Position numbers: made by a program
NCBI GenBank assembly: GCA_012026655.1
Contig: JAAILG010002295.1
Location: forward strand, 1-56,055
Direction of reading: 5' to 3'
Source: Hydrolagus affinis
Lineage: Eukaryota
DNA length: 56,055 bases
Part shown: piece by piece, positions 1-39,700 of the stretch
Position numbering within the stretch: the first letter of the stretch is position 1
How the letters are laid out: every line of letters starts with the position of its first letter

Positions 1-3000
1 AAAAGGGAATTAGATCTTTATTTAGGGAGAACAGGTCTATTAGGCTATGGGGAGCGGGCAGGGCAGTGGGATTGAATCGCTCTTTTCAAAGAGCCGGCAC
101 AGACTAGATGGGCCGAATGGCCTCCTTTTGTGCCGTAAAATTCTATGATTCTATGATTCTATGATTTAGAATGTAACCTACCCACAATCTGTTAATAATG
201 ACTAGTTTAGCAAGGGTTAACGGTAGCTTTGCTGGACTGGTTGAGGTCAGTTACTGATTATATTCAATATTTTCCTGGGAAGATGTTGACTGGTCTGAGA
301 TAATGAGCGATTGGGTCCTTGAGCAGAGATGTACGAACAATGGACCAGAGAAAGACAAGGCCACAGCCTCAGACACCTGTCGATCTCAAGGCTGAAGGAC
401 AAGCAGCCTTCCATGGCCTCAGATAATATCTCATACGTTCATTACAGAATCCTTACAACAGGTCAGTAAGTGAGAAAAATATCCTTCCACCCTCAGCGTG
501 GCCCAGTTTTGCCCATCGTTACCTTTGAGTCACTCACAGCTGGCTTCAAGCCAGCCATGTTGGCAAAGTACTGAATAACCTTCTTGGTGTTTTCTGTCTT
601 CCCAGCACCGGATTCTCCACTGGGCACGGAGAACAGTAACAGGATTACATTTTGTGGGGAGAAATAGAGTAAGTAAAATGTTTCAATTTAGCCCCAAATT
701 AATTATTTTTATCGGCAATGTTTTGACTATGGAGCTGAAATTCTCTTTTGTTAAATGTTACATTTGCAAAGAGTTACGCAAAATACTGAAGCAATGAACA
801 AATGGAAAAAGTCCAAACATTGGATCAATTAATATTTTTCTGAATGCATATTCAACAAAACACTCAATTAATAAATAAATGGAGAAAACTTAACACAAAT
901 GTTTTTTTTGTGTCATATATCTAGGTACAGTAAATGCTAATTTCGGCGGTGGCTTATTTTTGTATTGTAAACCAATCACACCCTGTAAAAGTTTATACTT
1001 CTGTATTTCGTGATCTGCTTATCAACTTGCATTTAGGAGAGGAAACATATCTGCGAAAAGCTACTTACGTGATGAGCATGGACTGATTTTCACGTTCTGT
1101 GGAAGGAAAAATAGAGTTCAAGATACTTAAGATATCGCGCACTATTTTACAAGCCTCAAAGACCCAGAACTGCCCAACTCTTGAATGACCTGCAGTGTTC
1201 CTCCAGCAGGAATGAACGAAAGAGCTTCAAACATGTGGGAAACACAACCGACTGAAGAGAATTGTAAAATAAATCCTTGGCATTAAAACGACCGCAAATA
1301 ATTTAACTTGATGCGTAGAAAGGAAGAATAATGGGGTATTTAATATCTCTTGTGTTGTTCCTGTGTCTGCATTTCTTATTGTACAGTCAATTCGCTTTAC
1401 AGTACAGAATATATTCTGTGAAGCGCCTTGAGACACGGTCTAGAAGACGCGATAAAGCCGCTAGATCAAATGCCAGGATTATTATTTCTTGCGTCTCCGA
1501 GGTGGAAATCGGACCAAGTAACTTCCTATTGTCTAATATGTTTCTCCCGTTCTATAGCTATGACAGGACTGTGTTGCGCCCAAGTCTCTCTTACCCATCA
1601 ACATGTCGTGGTAGGCGTTGTCAGAGATGGAGAAGAGATGAGGAGGCATCTCACTGCGTTTCTTGCCCTTGTACATCCGAGCCACTCTCGCGCCATAGAT
1701 GGGCAGCCACTTGTAGGGGTTCACTGTCACGCAGAACAACCCAGAGTAGGTCTGCAGAGAGTCAAACCAATAATATATACAGTCTATACTTTCCTCAGAA
1801 CAAACAGTTTTAACATCTTCCGACTGTGTTCATTAGACACCAGACAAATTGGACATCTTTGAAGACTGTCAACTGAGGAAGCGTGACATGGACAGGAATG
1901 GATAATTCTTTTATCTCATCCAACAACTACAACAACACAATTACACTTGTCTAGTGCCGTTCAGGTCAGGAGGATGTCCCAAGTTACTGCTCACAGACCC
2001 GAGCTGAGGACGGTGGGGGTGGGAGGGAAGGGGGGAATTAGGAGTTACCGATGGGTCCATCGCAGAGAAGATTCTTGAGGCGAGACTTGAAGGAGGCCAG
2101 GGAGGGGGGCGAGGTGGAGGGACTGCGGGATGGAGTTCCAGAGATCCTACAACTGGCCTAAAGTTTTGCCCCAAGCCGGGAATCAAAGCGGGTGGTCTCG
2201 CTGGTGCTCTAACCCCACGGGCAGACTTACATAGATTCTCATCTTGAAGTAACGCTGGCGGAGGTTGTCGAGGATGCTGGCCTCATTCAGGAAGGTCAGG
2301 TTGGCCATGTCTGTGGCCTGGTAAAACTTGGGGGGATTCATTTGGTCAACTTCTTCTTTCTTCAGGGTCAAAGTCTGCAAAGAAAAACAAACTTTAAATG
2401 TCTAGAGTTTATCAGTAATTTATTATATTGGCGTACAATAAAACAACACATAATCCAACCAACGGACCAGTTAGATACATGTTAATCTCTGAAATTAGAC
2501 TTGATCTTAGTCCGTTACATCTTAAAACGGTGGAGAATGATGGAAAATTCCTCAATTCGGTCTTTAGTTGGAGGTTGGTTTCCCCCGCAGTCGTTAAAAA
2601 GAAACCGGTTTTCCAATGGAAGGATATTCCACAATTAAGGGCGACCTTTAAATTTTTACGGCCGATGTTACAGGTTAAGATGAAGTGACATTTCAGGCTG
2701 GTATTTAGTGATATCCTGTTCTCTTCACTAGTACAATAAAAGAGCTCCATTCTCTTTACATCAAGATTTACCCATAGGTTATGCAGAAACTAAACCCCTT
2801 GTTTTCAGTTAAGGAGGATTCCTTACTCTTTAATCTAACTAGAATTTTAGACGACATGAAAAGAAATAACAGAATGACTATAATATATATAAAAATAATA
2901 AATCCTTCCATTTGATATAGAGGCTTTTCACATCTTATCAACGTGTCAAAGCTGCTTCACAGAATATACTGTCAAGTGAATAGACTGTATATATTTGTGG

Positions 3001-36700: not shown

Positions 36701-39700
36701 TCCTCCTGCTGTTCCTTCTCTAACAGGAAAATCTCAGGACACAAGGTGCATATAAGTGAAATCATTGACTCAAGTTTCACCACAATCCCCGCTCAGAGCC
36801 TTTGATAAAATCTCTGATGACAATGGCGCAGGTAAAGAGATGGATGTACAACCTATGTTTCCTGATATGGATCATTATGTGAGTGCGTCTTCTCCATGTG
36901 CTCTACTTGCAAGAAAACTATCAGAAATAATAATAATAATTACATGATAATAATCCTTGCATTTGACATAGCTCCGTGTATTCATAGAATCATAGAATTT
37001 TACGTCACAAACGGAGGCCATTCGGCCCATCTAGTCTGTGCCGGCTCTTTGAAAAGAGCAACTCAATCCCACTGCCCAGCTCTCTCCCCACAACCTAACA
37101 GACCTGTTCTCCCTAAATAAAGATCTAATTCCCTTTTAAAAGCTGTTATGGAATCGGCCTCCACCACCTTTTCAGGCAATGCATTCCAGATTCCAACAAC
37201 CCGCCGAGTGAAAACATTTCTCCTCAGCTCCCCTCTGCTTCGTTTTGAAACTATTTTAAATCTGTGACCACGAGTCACTGATTCGCCCACCAGTGGAAAC
37301 AGTCTTTTCTTATTACCCTGTCGAATCCCCTCATGATTTTATAAACCTCTATTAGGTCTCCTCTCAACCTTCTCTGTTCCAAAGAAAATAAACCTAGCCT
37401 AACTAGCCTTTCCCCATAACTGAAGTCCCTCAATCCTGGTTCTAGTAAACCTTCTTTGTCCCCTTTCCAATGCCTTGACATCCTTTCTATAGTGTATTGT
37501 TGTTGAGACTTCTCAAAGAATGTATTGTAAAGTTGATTCTCGGTGCATTTTGTGGGTAAAACACGGCAGGCAATTGCACACAGTAATCTTCCGCTAACCC
37601 ACTGTTAGTGGAAGATTTAGTGACGATTTTATTTTGAGGGATTATTATATGATAATAATCCTTACATTTATATAGCGCTTTCCACATCTTATCGACGTCT
37701 CAAAATCAGAATCTGACCTAATTAAGTGTTAACTAAATGGCCAGCAAAACAAATTCATCAATTGCAAGACTGAAACTAGCTGCCAAATCTTAAAGTGCAA
37801 TACAAACAGGATTGCACAGCAACGAAGAAAGTTGAACGATAATTAAAAAGGACAATTTATTCATTCAAATTTAGTGCATTTTCTTTGCCCTTTTCAATCC
37901 TATCTTATGCAACCTACAATGAATTATTGATGTAGCTGCTAAATATTGCAACCACTAATTAGAGAAACATACAGAGCTATTAAAATATTTATTATCCGCC
38001 ACTAATATTCTTTGAACAAACTAAAAGAATTGTACTCCACCCTGTGTCTTTCCATATCTTATTCCTTTAAGTGTTTGCTTCTATGAGTGTGTGTGTGTGT
38101 GTGCGAAATAATATAATGTAATCTTTGAACACCTTTCTCTTCAAATGAAATGACAGCCCATTTGTTTACTGTAAGATCTGAATTGTAACGTAGTTGTCCT
38201 TTGGGTAGAAAAGAATAAGACATTTTATTTTAAAGCAGTCAAGAAGTCAATAGGAGAGGACTTACCAGAGATAGAAACAGAAGCTGCTGTGAAACAACAC
38301 TCTGGATCCCACCTTTTATCCTCTTCAGTTTCCCTAGAGGAAACAATAATTATTAAAACAAGTAGTTAGAAAAAATCTTTTGGCATGACCCAGGATGGTT
38401 CTGATTGGCCTAACCTGGAGGTCTCCGTGGATGGTTCATTTAGGTCATGTTTCTTGGGAGTTCTACAATTCAGTTATGTCCATATTGGGAGCAGCTTGGT
38501 GTTGCAAAGCTCTCAGCTAACACTTAATATAACCCACCGTTATGATTTTTATTCTATTCATGTCACATTAACAAATTACACAAAACCTTGTAATGCATAC
38601 GTCAAAACCCTTGGACTTACTCCAATTGCCCCTGACTTCAGCCACCGAGAACATCCTTCCCCCCAACATATCAATCATCACCTTACAAACCTTTGGAAAT
38701 GTTCACCCGATTCATGCTTGTTTTGTGGGAAAAAATACTATTAATCATCCTTGCATTTTGGTATAGCAACTGTTCTCGAGAAGTCTTAAAGTGCTTCACA
38801 GAATATACTATGAAGTGAATTAACTATATTTTGCGGGTGAAAAAGAGGGGTCTGTTTTCTTTTGCCAATTTCCAAATATTTAGAAAGTGTTTTTTAAATT
38901 GAAATTAATTTTTGCTCTTTGCTATTTTGCCAATTTTTTAAAAAAAATGCAAATAATTTTTAACTAACAAGAATTAAAACAAGCAGACACAGTGAGTTTG
39001 GATTAAGTTCCCATTTGTTTAGATAGGCAATGCTCCGCACGCCACATTTTGATATGTAAGATGCCACACATGAATCTCATTCTAAGATATATCATCACAT
39101 CGCAGTAGTACAAGGACCGTGACTTGCCACCGATTAATATTTTATACACATGCGTTGAGTATGCATTGATTAATAATAATAATCTTTGTGTTTGATATAG
39201 TGGCTTTTCACATCTTTAGATGCCTCAAAGCGCCTCACAGAATATACTGGAAAGTGAATTGACTGTATATTTGTGGGTGAAACGTGGCAGCCAATTGCGC
39301 ATAGTAGTGTCCTCATAAACAGTCGTGGATTGAAACGACCAATTTTGTTTGAGGGTTTATTATCAGGCTTATGGAGTAAGGAAACTTGCCCAAGGTTTCA
39401 CCCTGATCTGCCAGGAATTGAACCCAGATTTCTAGCTTGCGAGGCGAGTGCTGTAAACACTGAGCTGCAGGACTCCTGATTGGACATTCAATTTACCGTT
39501 GTTTGTGAGGACATTGCTGGGGGCAAGTTGGCTGCCATGCTCACCTACACGGTCACTGTACTTTACAACATATCCTGGGAGATGTTTTGAGAACTTCTCC
39601 TAATGTAAAAGACGCTACATGAAATACAAAGATTATTAATGTGTTCCCAAGAGTTCCTTCTCCTTCAATTATGAACCAATGCAATCGAGAGCTTTAGGTA

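What the first reader, a model, noticed from the sequence alone, without database searches (positions are those of the whole stretch)
523..38490. Tandem duplication of MYH16 at the KPNA7-SMURF1 locus, with the KPNA7-proximal copy dying
Seen: two head-to-tail MYH16 genes with the same exon phases and homologous promoters. Their second coding exons differ at about 28 of 144 nt by hand count and introns are mostly unalignable, so the duplication is old. Known: mammals have a single MYH16 next to KPNA7 and SMURF1. Inference: both copies were maintained for a long time, possibly as two jaw or head muscle isoforms, before B was lost.
[Added by the scan's program, not by the reader: the finding's places include an assembly gap (unread letters, written N; its length is only estimated) at 6605 to 6704. 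Whether the letters on both sides are continuous or in frame is not known: test that first.]
Basis: partly seen in the sequence, partly recalled or inferred. Interest (0 to 1): 0.65.

Follow-up and report, generated by a model that had tools for sequence, protein, structure and literature searches.

The report
Duplicated jaw myosin, one copy decaying
This cartilaginous-fish genome carries two side-by-side copies of the jaw-muscle myosin gene MYH16 that arose before sharks and chimaeras parted, and the copy next to the importin gene has recently been broken by a 17-base deletion and a stop codon.

Summary
The core observation holds. Two MYH16-type myosin heavy-chain genes lie head to tail on the minus strand. 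Copy A (exons 1-5, 3536..523) runs off the window. Copy B (35668..12077) is complete, with 43 coding exons.

A is the orthologue of Callorhinchus milii "myosin-16": 140/156 residues match in exons 1, 2, 4 and 5. B is the orthologue of C. milii "myosin-16-like": 1800/1926 residues match. So the pair is already annotated in a public genome.

Trees and two AU tests place the duplication after the split from bony vertebrates and before the chimaera/shark split.

B keeps 42/42 GT donors, 42/42 AG acceptors and the exact coding length, but has two lesions:
- a 17-nt deletion in exon 11, giving a frameshift and a TAA at 29987..29985;
- a TAG at 15624..15622, where 11 of 12 MYH16 proteins have Gln.

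A relative-rate test shows no clear acceleration (36 vs 23 changes, p about 0.09-0.12), so the inactivation is recent, or it is an allele or an assembly error.

Exon 3 is 154/157 identical between A and B, against 73-89% for the other shared exons. This is a short gene-conversion tract.

"Homologous promoters" was not confirmed. The gap at 6605-6704 is intergenic.

The parts
3333..3536 (-). Copy A coding exon 1 (ATG at 3536; 204 nt)
   Evidence: 57/68 residues match P0001; GT donor. Myosin_N, E 1.1e-13.
2231..2374 (-). Copy A exon 2 (144 nt, phase 0)
   Evidence: AG/GT, 47/48 match P0001; 27/144 nt differ from B exon 2.
1595..1751 (-). Copy A exon 3 (157 nt), likely donor of the conversion tract
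   Evidence: 50/52 match P0001; 3/157 nt differ from B exon 3. Myosin_head, E 2.6e-19.
1069..1096 (-). Copy A exon 4 (28-nt mini-exon, phase 1)
   Evidence: AG/GT, 8/8 match.
523..619 (-). Copy A exon 5 (97 nt, phase 2; holds the P-loop GESGAGKT). The gene continues beyond the window's left end.
1576..1754 (-). Conversion tract, A side (exon 3 plus about 18-19 nt of the downstream intron)
   Evidence: 98.3% identity over 179 nt to 34240-34418; the flanks do not align.
34240..34418 (-). Conversion tract, B side
   Evidence: here B carries A-type residues, not those of its orthologue P0037.
6605..6704 (.). Assembly gap (100 N), intergenic, between A's 5' end and B's 3' end
6506..6604 (.). 99 nt left of the gap, repeated exactly at 6705-6803
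6705..6803 (.). 99 nt right of the gap, identical to 6506-6604; part of a SINE copy
12077..35668 (-). Copy B, whole coding span: 43 exons, ATG at 35668, TGA at 12079..12077
   Evidence: aligns to P0037 residues 1-1946, 1800/1926 identical; exon lengths sum to 5824 = 1946x3+3-17; 42/42 GT donors and 42/42 AG acceptors.
35459..35668 (-). B exon 1 (210 nt)
   Evidence: 58/70 match.
34956..35099 (-). B exon 2 (144 nt)
   Evidence: 45/48 match.
34259..34415 (-). B exon 3 (157 nt), converted from A
33410..33437 (-). B exon 4 (28 nt)
33053..33149 (-). B exon 5 (97 nt, P-loop)
32283..32375 (-). B exon 6 (93 nt)
   Evidence: 31/31 match.
31778..31841 (-). B exon 7 (64 nt)
   Evidence: 21/21 match.
31526..31624 (-). 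B exon 8 (99 nt)
31273..31376 (-). B exon 9 (104 nt). The junction with exon 10 is ambiguous by 4 nt; the alternative is 31269|30823.
30689..30827 (-). B exon 10 (139 nt)
29951..30052 (-). B exon 11: 102 nt where 119 are expected. Lesion 1 is a 17-nt deletion at about 29997/29996 that removes the ITRP(R) stretch and shifts the frame.
   Evidence: this stretch is invariant and ungapped in 12 of 12 MYH16 proteins.
29985..29987 (-). First premature stop (TAA) in the shifted frame, at about codon 401 of 1946
29248..29397 (-). B exon 12 (150 nt)
   Evidence: 50/50 match.
28297..28467 (-). B exon 13 (171 nt)
   Evidence: Myosin_head, E 1.2e-29.
27926..28105 (-). B exon 14 (180 nt)
   Evidence: Myosin_head, E 5.3e-12.
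27683..27809 (-). B exon 15 (127 nt)
27405..27463 (-). B exon 16 (59 nt)
26958..27045 (-). B exon 17 (88 nt)
26210..26327 (-). B exon 18 (118 nt)
25698..25818 (-). B exon 19 (121 nt)
24964..25100 (-). B exon 20 (137 nt)
24245..24326 (-). B exon 21 (82 nt, neck; an IQ-like motif is seen in the translation)
23897..24070 (-). B exon 22 (174 nt)
23498..23725 (-). B exon 23 (228 nt)
23007..23111 (-). B exon 24 (105 nt)
22806..22892 (-). B exon 25 (87 nt)
22350..22495 (-). B exon 26 (146 nt)
21933..22023 (-). B exon 27 (91 nt)
21781..21837 (-). B exon 28 (57 nt)
21232..21318 (-). B exon 29 (87 nt)
20644..20889 (-). B exon 30 (246 nt)
   Evidence: Myosin_tail_1, E 4.3e-9 (35.3 bits, under the whole-protein cut-off of 38.1).
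20136..20253 (-). B exon 31 (118 nt)
18515..18642 (-). B exon 32 (128 nt)
17307..17503 (-). B exon 33 (197 nt)
17021..17153 (-). B exon 34 (133 nt)
16481..16697 (-). B exon 35 (217 nt)
15979..16115 (-). B exon 36 (137 nt)
15548..15651 (-). B exon 37 (104 nt); carries lesion 2
15622..15624 (-). Lesion 2: an in-frame TAG where P0037 and 10 of the 11 other MYH16 proteins have Gln
15222..15414 (-). B exon 38 (193 nt)
14388..14591 (-). B exon 39 (204 nt)
13632..13757 (-). B exon 40 (126 nt)
13041..13211 (-). B exon 41 (171 nt)
12725..12925 (-). B exon 42 (201 nt)
12077..12280 (-). B exon 43 (201 nt plus the TGA stop)
46600..51686 (+). Importin-alpha gene, divergent from copy B (IBB, several Arm repeats, Arm_3). 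Exon borders were not modelled. KPNA7 orthology is inferred from position only.
55820..55876 (+). Short ORF start (MSNPGARRNGSSIKIRLT...) after a G+C-rich stretch. I recall it as SMURF-like. The end coordinate is approximate.
   Evidence: translation; G+C 0.49; 0 PDB matches, so the assignment is untested.

Best explanation
The locus holds an ancient tandem pair of sarcomeric (class II) myosin heavy-chain genes of the MYH16 (masticatory) type.

- **Copy A** is the conserved chondrichthyan MYH16. It is the orthologue of Callorhinchus "myosin-16" and of the single shark MYH16-like proteins.
- **Copy B** is the orthologue of Callorhinchus "myosin-16-like". This paralogue arose in the chondrichthyan stem, before chimaeras and sharks or rays separated. 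Among the proteins I could search, it turns up only in Callorhinchus.
- **State of B.** B evolved under purifying selection for nearly all of that time. In this genome it has just been inactivated by a 17-nt deletion in motor-domain exon 11 and a Gln-to-stop change in rod exon 37. The deletion shifts the frame and gives a stop at about codon 401 of 1946.
- **Conversion.** A roughly 180-nt gene-conversion event copied A's exon 3 into B.
- **Species.** From the identities, the window comes from a holocephalan other than C. milii.

What is shown: gene structures, lesions, orthology, tree position, and the conversion tract.

What is inferred: that the lesions are real and make B a null gene whose transcript would be a target of nonsense-mediated decay; that the inactivation is recent; that the conversion ran from A to B; and that A supplies the jaw-muscle myosin.
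For: **Structure.**
- Spliced alignments to P0001 and P0037 both give 43 exons for B with the same two lesions and no others.
- The exon lengths sum to exactly 1946x3+3-17 nt. All 42 donors are GT and all 42 acceptors are AG.
- A's exons 1-5 are intact.

**Family.**
- Pfam finds Myosin_N, Myosin_head and Myosin_tail_1 exon by exon.
- In one search, 21 of 67 candidates passed E <= 1e-5. Most are named myosin-16, and three mis-named records (Platysternon, Ophiophagus, and one hypothetical) align as MYH16.

**Orthology.**

| Window gene | Compared with | Identity |
|---|---|---|
| B (spliced alignment) | P0037 | 1800/1926 (93.5%) |
| B (42 exons) | P0001 | 1524/1890 (80.6%) |
| B (42 exons) | sharks | 79.1-79.7% |
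| A (exons 1, 2, 4, 5) | P0001 | 140/156 (89.7%) |
| A (exons 1, 2, 4, 5) | P0037 | 112/156 (71.8%) |
| A (exons 1, 2, 4, 5) | sharks | 69.9-75.0% |

**Age.**
- LG+G4 careful tree: chondrichthyan clade including P0037 at 100/99, and (P0001 + 3 sharks) at 100/100.
- LG+C20 PMSF quick tree: same topology, 98 and 100.
- AU tests reject (P0037, P0001) as a clade (delta lnL 92.1, p 9.8e-8). They also reject P0037 placed outside all other MYH16 (delta lnL 27.2, p 6.6e-4).
- A versus B over exons 1, 2, 4 and 5: dS 1.10, dN 0.13, dN/dS 0.12.

**Lesions fall at conserved sites.**
- The deleted stretch is invariant and ungapped in 12 of 12 MYH16 proteins.
- Gln is present in 11 of 12 at the stop position.

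**Recency.** B-lineage changes number 36 against 23 on the Callorhinchus lineage, mostly conservative.

**Conversion.**
- Exon 3 has 3/157 differences (dS 0.06) with unalignable flanks.
- There, B has A-type residues where P0037 differs, and shares a window-specific Arg with A.
Against: - Only one assembly is available, and it has gaps. I could not check reads, so either lesion could be an assembly error or a heterozygous or rare allele.
- Perfect splice sites and exact length conservation are also what an intact gene with two errors would show.
- The relative-rate excess in B is not significant (36 vs 23 changes, with 66 ambiguous differences set aside; chi-square 2.86, p 0.09; binomial p 0.12). 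So nothing beyond the lesions signals relaxed constraint.
- A is seen for only 5 exons, and its integrity further on is unknown.
- The adjacency of A and B crosses the gap at 6605-6704.
- The absence of B-type genes in sharks and rays rests on annotated proteins (best 120 of 8000 scored), not on genome searches.
- I named the AU-test groups after seeing the quick tree.
- The dN/dS rests on 465 sites.
- No expression data exist for either copy.
Confidence: 0.7

Rival explanations
1. Copy B is a working gene in this species. The two lesions are assembly or sequencing errors, or belong to a null allele carried by the sequenced individual and not fixed in the species.
For: - B has 42/42 canonical donors and 42/42 canonical acceptors, an intact ATG and stop, and a coding length identical to P0037 apart from the 17 nt.
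- It shows no significant rate acceleration.
- The assembly has 100-N gaps with an unmerged 99-nt overlap at the first one, so it is not polished to finished quality.
Against: - A 17-nt deletion in unique exon sequence is not a typical base-calling error, and there are two independent lesions in one gene.
- No lesion was seen in A's five exons or in the importin ORF pieces scanned.
- B's excess of changes, though not significant, leans towards relaxation (36 vs 23; 15 vs 10 at sites invariant in all 11 other proteins).
Confidence: 0.2
2. The duplication is young and specific to holocephalans. B only looks old because it evolves fast.
For: P0037 has the longest end branch among the chondrichthyan MYH16 rows (0.15, against 0.08 for P0001).
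Against: - The AU test rejects the two Callorhinchus genes as a clade (delta lnL 92.1, p 9.8e-8).
- The topology is the same under the site-heterogeneous model.
- dS between A and B is about 1.1.
- B is no closer to P0001 (80.6%) than to Amia (81.2%).
Confidence: 0.03
3. The tandem arrangement is an assembly artefact. A and B would be alleles or haplotigs, or a wrong scaffold join across the gap would have brought together genes from different places.
For: A 100-N gap separates A from B.
Against: - The copies differ by 19-26% in exons 1, 2 and 5, with unalignable introns, so they are not alleles.
- Each has its own orthologue in Callorhinchus, and the database lists both on a contig of the same length, 16,789,714.
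- The 99-nt exact overlap at the gap is what adjacent contig ends would give.
Confidence: 0.03

Closest known systems
Callorhinchus milii gene pair 'myosin-16' (P0001, 1940 aa) and 'myosin-16-like' (P0037, 1946 aa), from automatic NCBI annotation
   Same: The same two paralogues. A matches P0001 at 89.7% over exons 1, 2, 4 and 5. B matches P0037 at 93.5% over 1926 residues, with identical coding length apart from the deletion. Both Callorhinchus proteins are listed on a contig of the same length.
   Different: In Callorhinchus the B-type gene is annotated as a full-length protein. Here it carries a frameshifting deletion and a nonsense codon, and its exon 3 has been overwritten from A. My tools did not show whether the Callorhinchus genes are adjacent or what their orientation is.
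Human MYH16 pseudogene
   Same: A masticatory-myosin gene is disabled by a small frameshifting deletion while the rest of the gene still looks intact. PMC6402096 (passages read) describes a two-nucleotide deletion in exon 18.
   Different: In humans the only MYH16 copy is lost. Here a paralogue (A) remains, so the loss may simply remove redundancy. No human sequence was used or compared.
MYH16 pseudogenes in ant- and termite-eating mammals (PMC12906968; search listing and abstract only)
   Same: Repeated lineage-specific decay of MYH16.
   Different: Those are single-copy losses tied to reduced chewing. No ecological link is shown here.
Tandem sarcomeric MYH clusters such as MYH6/MYH7. PMC11050549 (passage read) states the tandem arrangement. 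Gene conversion among MYH paralogues is recalled, not from a call.
   Same: Head-to-tail paralogues with conserved exon structure and a short exon-sized conversion tract.
   Different: A different MYH subfamily, a much older pair, and one member disabled.

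Membership tests
Class II sarcomeric myosin heavy chain | N-terminal SH3-like domain | tested here: met
   Myosin_N (PF02736), E 1.1e-13, on A exon 1. B exon 1 aligns to the same part of P0037.
Class II sarcomeric myosin heavy chain | Motor domain with a P-loop | tested here: met
   Myosin_head on A exon 3 and on B exons 13 and 14 (E 2.6e-19, 1.2e-29, 5.3e-12). GESGAGKT is seen in exon 5 of both copies. 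In B the motor-domain reading frame is broken in exon 11.
Class II sarcomeric myosin heavy chain | Long coiled-coil tail | tested here: met
   Myosin_tail_1, E 4.3e-9 on exon 30 and 0.0025 on exon 35. Single exons fall below the whole-protein cut-off. B aligns to the whole rod of P0037.
Class II sarcomeric myosin heavy chain | IQ motifs in the neck | not tested
   IQ-like sequence is visible in the B exon 20-21 translations. No profile scan was run on them.
MYH16 (masticatory myosin) orthology group | Closest relatives are named MYH16, clearly above other sarcomeric myosins | tested here: met
   B is 75-93% identical to full-length MYH16 proteins and 56-58% to myosin-6, myosin-7 and fast skeletal models.
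MYH16 (masticatory myosin) orthology group | Falls inside the MYH16 clade of a rooted tree | tested here: met
   Tested by proxy. The orthologues P0001 and P0037 sit in the MYH16 clade (100/100; 100). The window genes were assigned to them exon by exon, not placed in the tree.
MYH16 (masticatory myosin) orthology group | Position beside KPNA7 and SMURF1 (the synteny is recalled from mammals) | tested here: inconclusive
   An importin-alpha gene (IBB, Arm, Arm_3) lies divergent from B. KPNA7 could not be separated from KPNA2. The SMURF-like ORF gave 0 PDB matches.
MYH16 (masticatory myosin) orthology group | Expression in jaw-closing muscle | not testable with these tools
   No expression data.
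Unprocessed (duplicated) pseudogene | Disabling lesions in an otherwise recognisable intron-containing gene | tested here: met
   A 17-nt deletion with a frameshift and a TAA at 29987..29985, and a TAG at 15624..15622.
Unprocessed (duplicated) pseudogene | Relaxed selective constraint | tested here: inconclusive
   36 vs 23 lineage-specific changes, p 0.09 to 0.12.
Unprocessed (duplicated) pseudogene | Lesions fixed in the species; no functional transcript | not testable with these tools
   No reads, no population data and no RNA data.
Interlocus gene conversion | A short tract of near-identity bounded by diverged sequence | tested here: met
   98.3% over 179 nt, against 73-89% in the other shared exons, and unalignable introns.
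Interlocus gene conversion | The tract's relationships disagree with those of the rest of the gene | tested here: met
   in exon 3, B shares a window-specific Arg with A where both Callorhinchus paralogues have Gln. B also lacks P0037's Phe and Arg. This rests on only 3 informative residues.

The most novel reading that the evidence does not exclude
Early cartilaginous fishes had two masticatory-type myosin genes. Sharks and rays then lost the B-type gene, while chimaeras kept it under selection for hundreds of millions of years, perhaps as a second jaw or head-muscle isoform for their crushing bite. This chimaera lineage is now losing it, which would make it a natural knock-out comparable to the human MYH16 loss, with a living sister lineage (Callorhinchus) that still has the gene.
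Probability: 0.35. Interest if true: 0.6.

Novelty: new member of a known kind. Interest (0 to 1): 0.42.

Why it matters
MYH16 is treated in reviews as a single, very old jaw-specific myosin gene (PMC6402096 and PMC11050549, passages read). Its loss in humans is a well-known case of gene decay.

A second MYH16 that is as old as the cartilaginous fishes has three consequences:
- MYH16 is a small family in this clade, not a single gene.
- There is a natural comparison between a species with B intact and one with B broken.
- The pair shows duplicate maintenance, exon-scale conversion and late pseudogenisation together in one locus.

The value is limited. The gene pair is already in a public annotation, the pattern (tandem MYH paralogues, conversion, pseudogene) is familiar, and nothing here is confirmed by reads or expression.

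Tried and rejected
- **Promoter homology.** Sensitive blastn of the two upstream regions gave only SINE or low-complexity matches. A global alignment of 400 nt upstream of each ATG showed no conserved block. The 5' non-coding exons were not located.
- **Third copy or alternative exons.** tblastn with P0001 found only the two colinear exon sets.
- **Careful tree under the site-heterogeneous model.** It did not finish in two 300-s runs. Only its quick version is reported.
- **Relative-rate test for relaxed constraint in B.** Not significant.
- **Cluster membership.** This stays unchecked.
- **ESM Atlas for the importin exon.** Closed.
- **SMURF-like 21-residue ORF start against PDB.** No match.
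- **Two ORFs at 37063-37604 that looked like a retroelement tail.** No Pfam match.
- **Rfam.** Only two tRNA-like SINE heads, and no intronic miRNA.
- **Literature.** Four full-text searches and passages of three papers turned up no description of two MYH16 genes in cartilaginous fishes. Supplements were closed and not consulted.
- **Collections not used.** Genome contigs holds only bacteria and archaea.

Full report
**Layout.** The 56,055-nt window has two 100-N gaps, at 6605-6704 and 43460-43559. Stop-to-stop ORFs and tblastn with a database myosin show the following:
- Every myosin-like exon is on the minus strand, in two colinear sets.
- Copy A runs from its ATG at 3536 down to 523 and continues off the left end of the window.
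- Copy B runs from 35668 to 12077.
- On the plus strand, 46600-51686 carries importin-alpha pieces: IBB, several Arm repeats and Arm_3. The best natural PDB relatives are importin alpha-1/-2.
- A short ORF start at 55820 follows a G+C-rich stretch. I recall it as SMURF-like, but I could not test this (one search gave 0 matches).

The window is not human. Its nearest proteins are those of the elephant fish, Callorhinchus milii. I met no contig that I take for human and used no human-named hit.

**Gap test.**
- The gap inside the finding (6605-6704) lies between A's 5' end and B's 3' end. It touches no exon and no reading frame.
- The 99 nt left of it are repeated exactly to its right.
- That stretch is part of a tRNA-derived SINE. 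The other copies in the window are only 72-90% like the reference copy (15 copies; tRNA-like heads).
- An exact 99-nt repeat is what two overlapping contig ends of one SINE copy would give. I therefore read the two sides as probably continuous, but the A-B adjacency formally depends on this join.

**The observation.** I wrote a protein-to-genome spliced aligner and ran stored database proteins against the window.
- A has five intact coding exons of 204, 144, 157, 28 and 97 nt.
- B's first five exons are 210, 144, 157, 28 and 97 nt, in the same phases.
- Introns do not align, except for SINE copies and short exon flanks.
- The claimed promoter homology was not found. Word-7 blastn of the upstream regions gave only SINE or low-complexity hits. 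The 400 nt before the two ATGs share no block.

**What the genes are.**
- Exon by exon, Pfam finds Myosin_N, Myosin_head and Myosin_tail_1.
- A's first exon retrieved 21 proteins out of 67 candidates, with myosin-16 of C. milii best at 84%.
- Searching with that database protein and then with a second one showed that C. milii has two annotated genes. These are myosin-16 (P0001, 1940 aa) and myosin-16-like (P0037, 1946 aa), both listed on a contig of the same length.
- Counted exon by exon:

| Window gene | P0001 | P0037 | Sharks | Other sarcomeric myosins |
|---|---|---|---|---|
| A (exons 1, 2, 4, 5) | 140/156 (89.7%) | 112/156 (71.8%) | 69.9-75.0% | 44-50% |
| B (42 exons) | 1524/1890 (80.6%) | 1765/1890 (93.4%) | 79.1-79.7% | 56-58% |

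- In the spliced alignment, B matches P0037 at 1800/1926 (93.5%).
- So A and B are the orthologues of the two Callorhinchus genes. The window most likely comes from another holocephalan (an inference from these identities).

**Age of the duplication.** I built trees from database proteins only: 19 MYH16 proteins plus four outgroup segments cut from fused gene models.
- The careful LG+G4 tree gives (P0037, (P0001, (Pristiophorus, (Mustelus, Chiloscyllium)))).
- Support is 100/99 for the chondrichthyan clade and 100/100 for P0001 plus sharks.
- The quick LG+C20 PMSF tree agrees, at 98 and 100.
- AU tests reject the two Callorhinchus genes as sisters (delta lnL 92.1, p 9.8e-8).
- They also reject the B-type lying outside all other MYH16 (delta lnL 27.2, p 6.6e-4).
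- The duplication therefore falls after the split from bony vertebrates and before the chimaera/shark split. I named the tested groups after seeing the quick tree.
- Between A and B, dS is 1.10 and dN 0.13, giving dN/dS 0.12 over 465 sites in exons 1, 2, 4 and 5. That means long purifying selection on both copies.
- Among the best 120 of 8000 scored proteins, only Callorhinchus entries are B-type. The three shark proteins are A-type, and no ray or skate protein appeared. This reflects annotation, not a genome search.

**State of copy B.**
- Against either reference, B has 43 coding exons, an ATG, a TGA stop, 42/42 GT donors and 42/42 AG acceptors.
- Its total coding length is 5824 nt, which is exactly 1946x3+3-17.
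- Lesion 1: exon 11 is 102 nt instead of 119. The missing 17 nt remove a stretch that is invariant and ungapped in 12 of 12 MYH16 proteins. They shift the frame onto a TAA at 29987..29985, about codon 401, inside the motor domain.
- Lesion 2: exon 37 has a TAG at 15624..15622, where 11 of 12 proteins have Gln.
- A relative-rate count against P0037, polarised with 11 other MYH16 proteins, gives 36 B-lineage and 23 Callorhinchus-lineage changes, with 66 ambiguous. At sites invariant in the other proteins the counts are 15 and 10. The result is chi-square 2.86, p 0.09.
- The near-symmetry, the conservative nature of the changes and the small number of lesions all point to very recent inactivation. 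They would equally fit an intact gene with two errors, or a null allele.

**Gene conversion.**
- Exon 3 is 154/157 identical between A and B (dS 0.06), and so are the first 18 or so bases of the following intron.
- Sequence on both sides of that tract is unalignable.
- In this exon B shares with A an Arg that both Callorhinchus paralogues lack. B also lacks two residues of its own orthologue P0037.
- A short conversion from A into B after the split from the Callorhinchus lineage is the simplest reading. It rests on only three informative residues.

**Explanation and rivals.**
- Best reading (0.7): an ancient chondrichthyan MYH16 pair, with A as the conserved gene and B as a long-maintained paralogue now freshly disabled, and with one exon homogenised by conversion.
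- Rival 1 (0.2): B is functional, and the lesions are errors or a non-fixed allele.
- Rival 2 (0.03): a young duplication with a fast-evolving B. The AU test rejects this.
- Rival 3 (0.03): an assembly artefact. This is contradicted by the 19-26% divergence in exons 1, 2 and 5, and by each copy having its own orthologue in Callorhinchus.

**Known or new.**
- Four full-text searches and passages of two reviews and one research paper treat MYH16 as one ancient jaw-specific gene. They mention sharks only for expression of masticatory myosin.
- I found no description of a second MYH16 in cartilaginous fishes. Supplements were closed.
- The gene pair is nevertheless present in the automatic annotation of C. 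milii.
- The new elements here are the decay of the B-type copy in a second holocephalan, the dating of the duplication, and the exon-3 conversion.

**Limits.**
Full-length work used the database orthologues as proxies.
- The listing of cluster members and the Atlas were unavailable.
- No eukaryotic genome collection was on hand. Reads, expression, the rest of copy A, and elasmobranch genomes therefore remain unchecked.

Noticed in passing
window 32679-33030 and 14 other places (e.g. 2880-3105, 9174-9516, 13886-14208, 14751-15091, 39172-39471): A tRNA-derived SINE family with 15 copies in 56 kb, 72-90% identical to the reference copy. Two copies keep a tRNA-like head that passes Rfam's tRNA threshold, and ARAGORN calls one of them tRNA-Val. 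Copies sit in introns of both myosin genes and in the spacers between genes.
   Followed up: partly
window 6506-6604 and 6705-6803: An exact 99-nt duplicate on both sides of the first 100-N gap. It looks like unmerged overlapping contig ends. The second gap (43460-43559) shows no such repeat in the flanks printed.
   Followed up: yes
window 1576-1754 and 34240-34418: An exon-sized gene-conversion tract between the two myosin copies: 98.3% identity over 179 nt, against 73-89% in the other shared exons.
   Followed up: yes
window 46600-51686 (+): An importin-alpha gene (IBB, Arm repeats, Arm_3) lies head to head with copy B, about 11 kb away. No stop was seen inside the ORF pieces scanned. Exon borders and the KPNA7-versus-KPNA2 identity were not resolved.
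   Followed up: partly
window 54900-56055: A G+C-rich, CT/GA-rich stretch (G+C 0.49, against about 0.40 nearby) is followed by a short ORF start at 55820. I recall that start as SMURF-like, so this may be a CpG-island promoter and first exon. There was no database support.
   Followed up: partly
window 37063-37604 (-): Two overlapping ORFs (91 and 109 aa) upstream of copy B. By recall their sequence looks like the C-terminal tail of a LINE ORF2. There was no Pfam match.
   Followed up: partly
database proteins P0006, P0014, P0016 (Lepisosteus) and P0069, P0118 (Synaphobranchus): Some ray-finned fishes have more than one MYH16-named entry. For Synaphobranchus the two entries are on contigs of different length. 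I did not examine whether these are separate genes or alternative models.
   Followed up: no
searches hit lists: No ray or skate MYH16 protein appears among the best 120 hits of either search, while three sharks do. This could reflect clustering, annotation or real loss.
   Followed up: no
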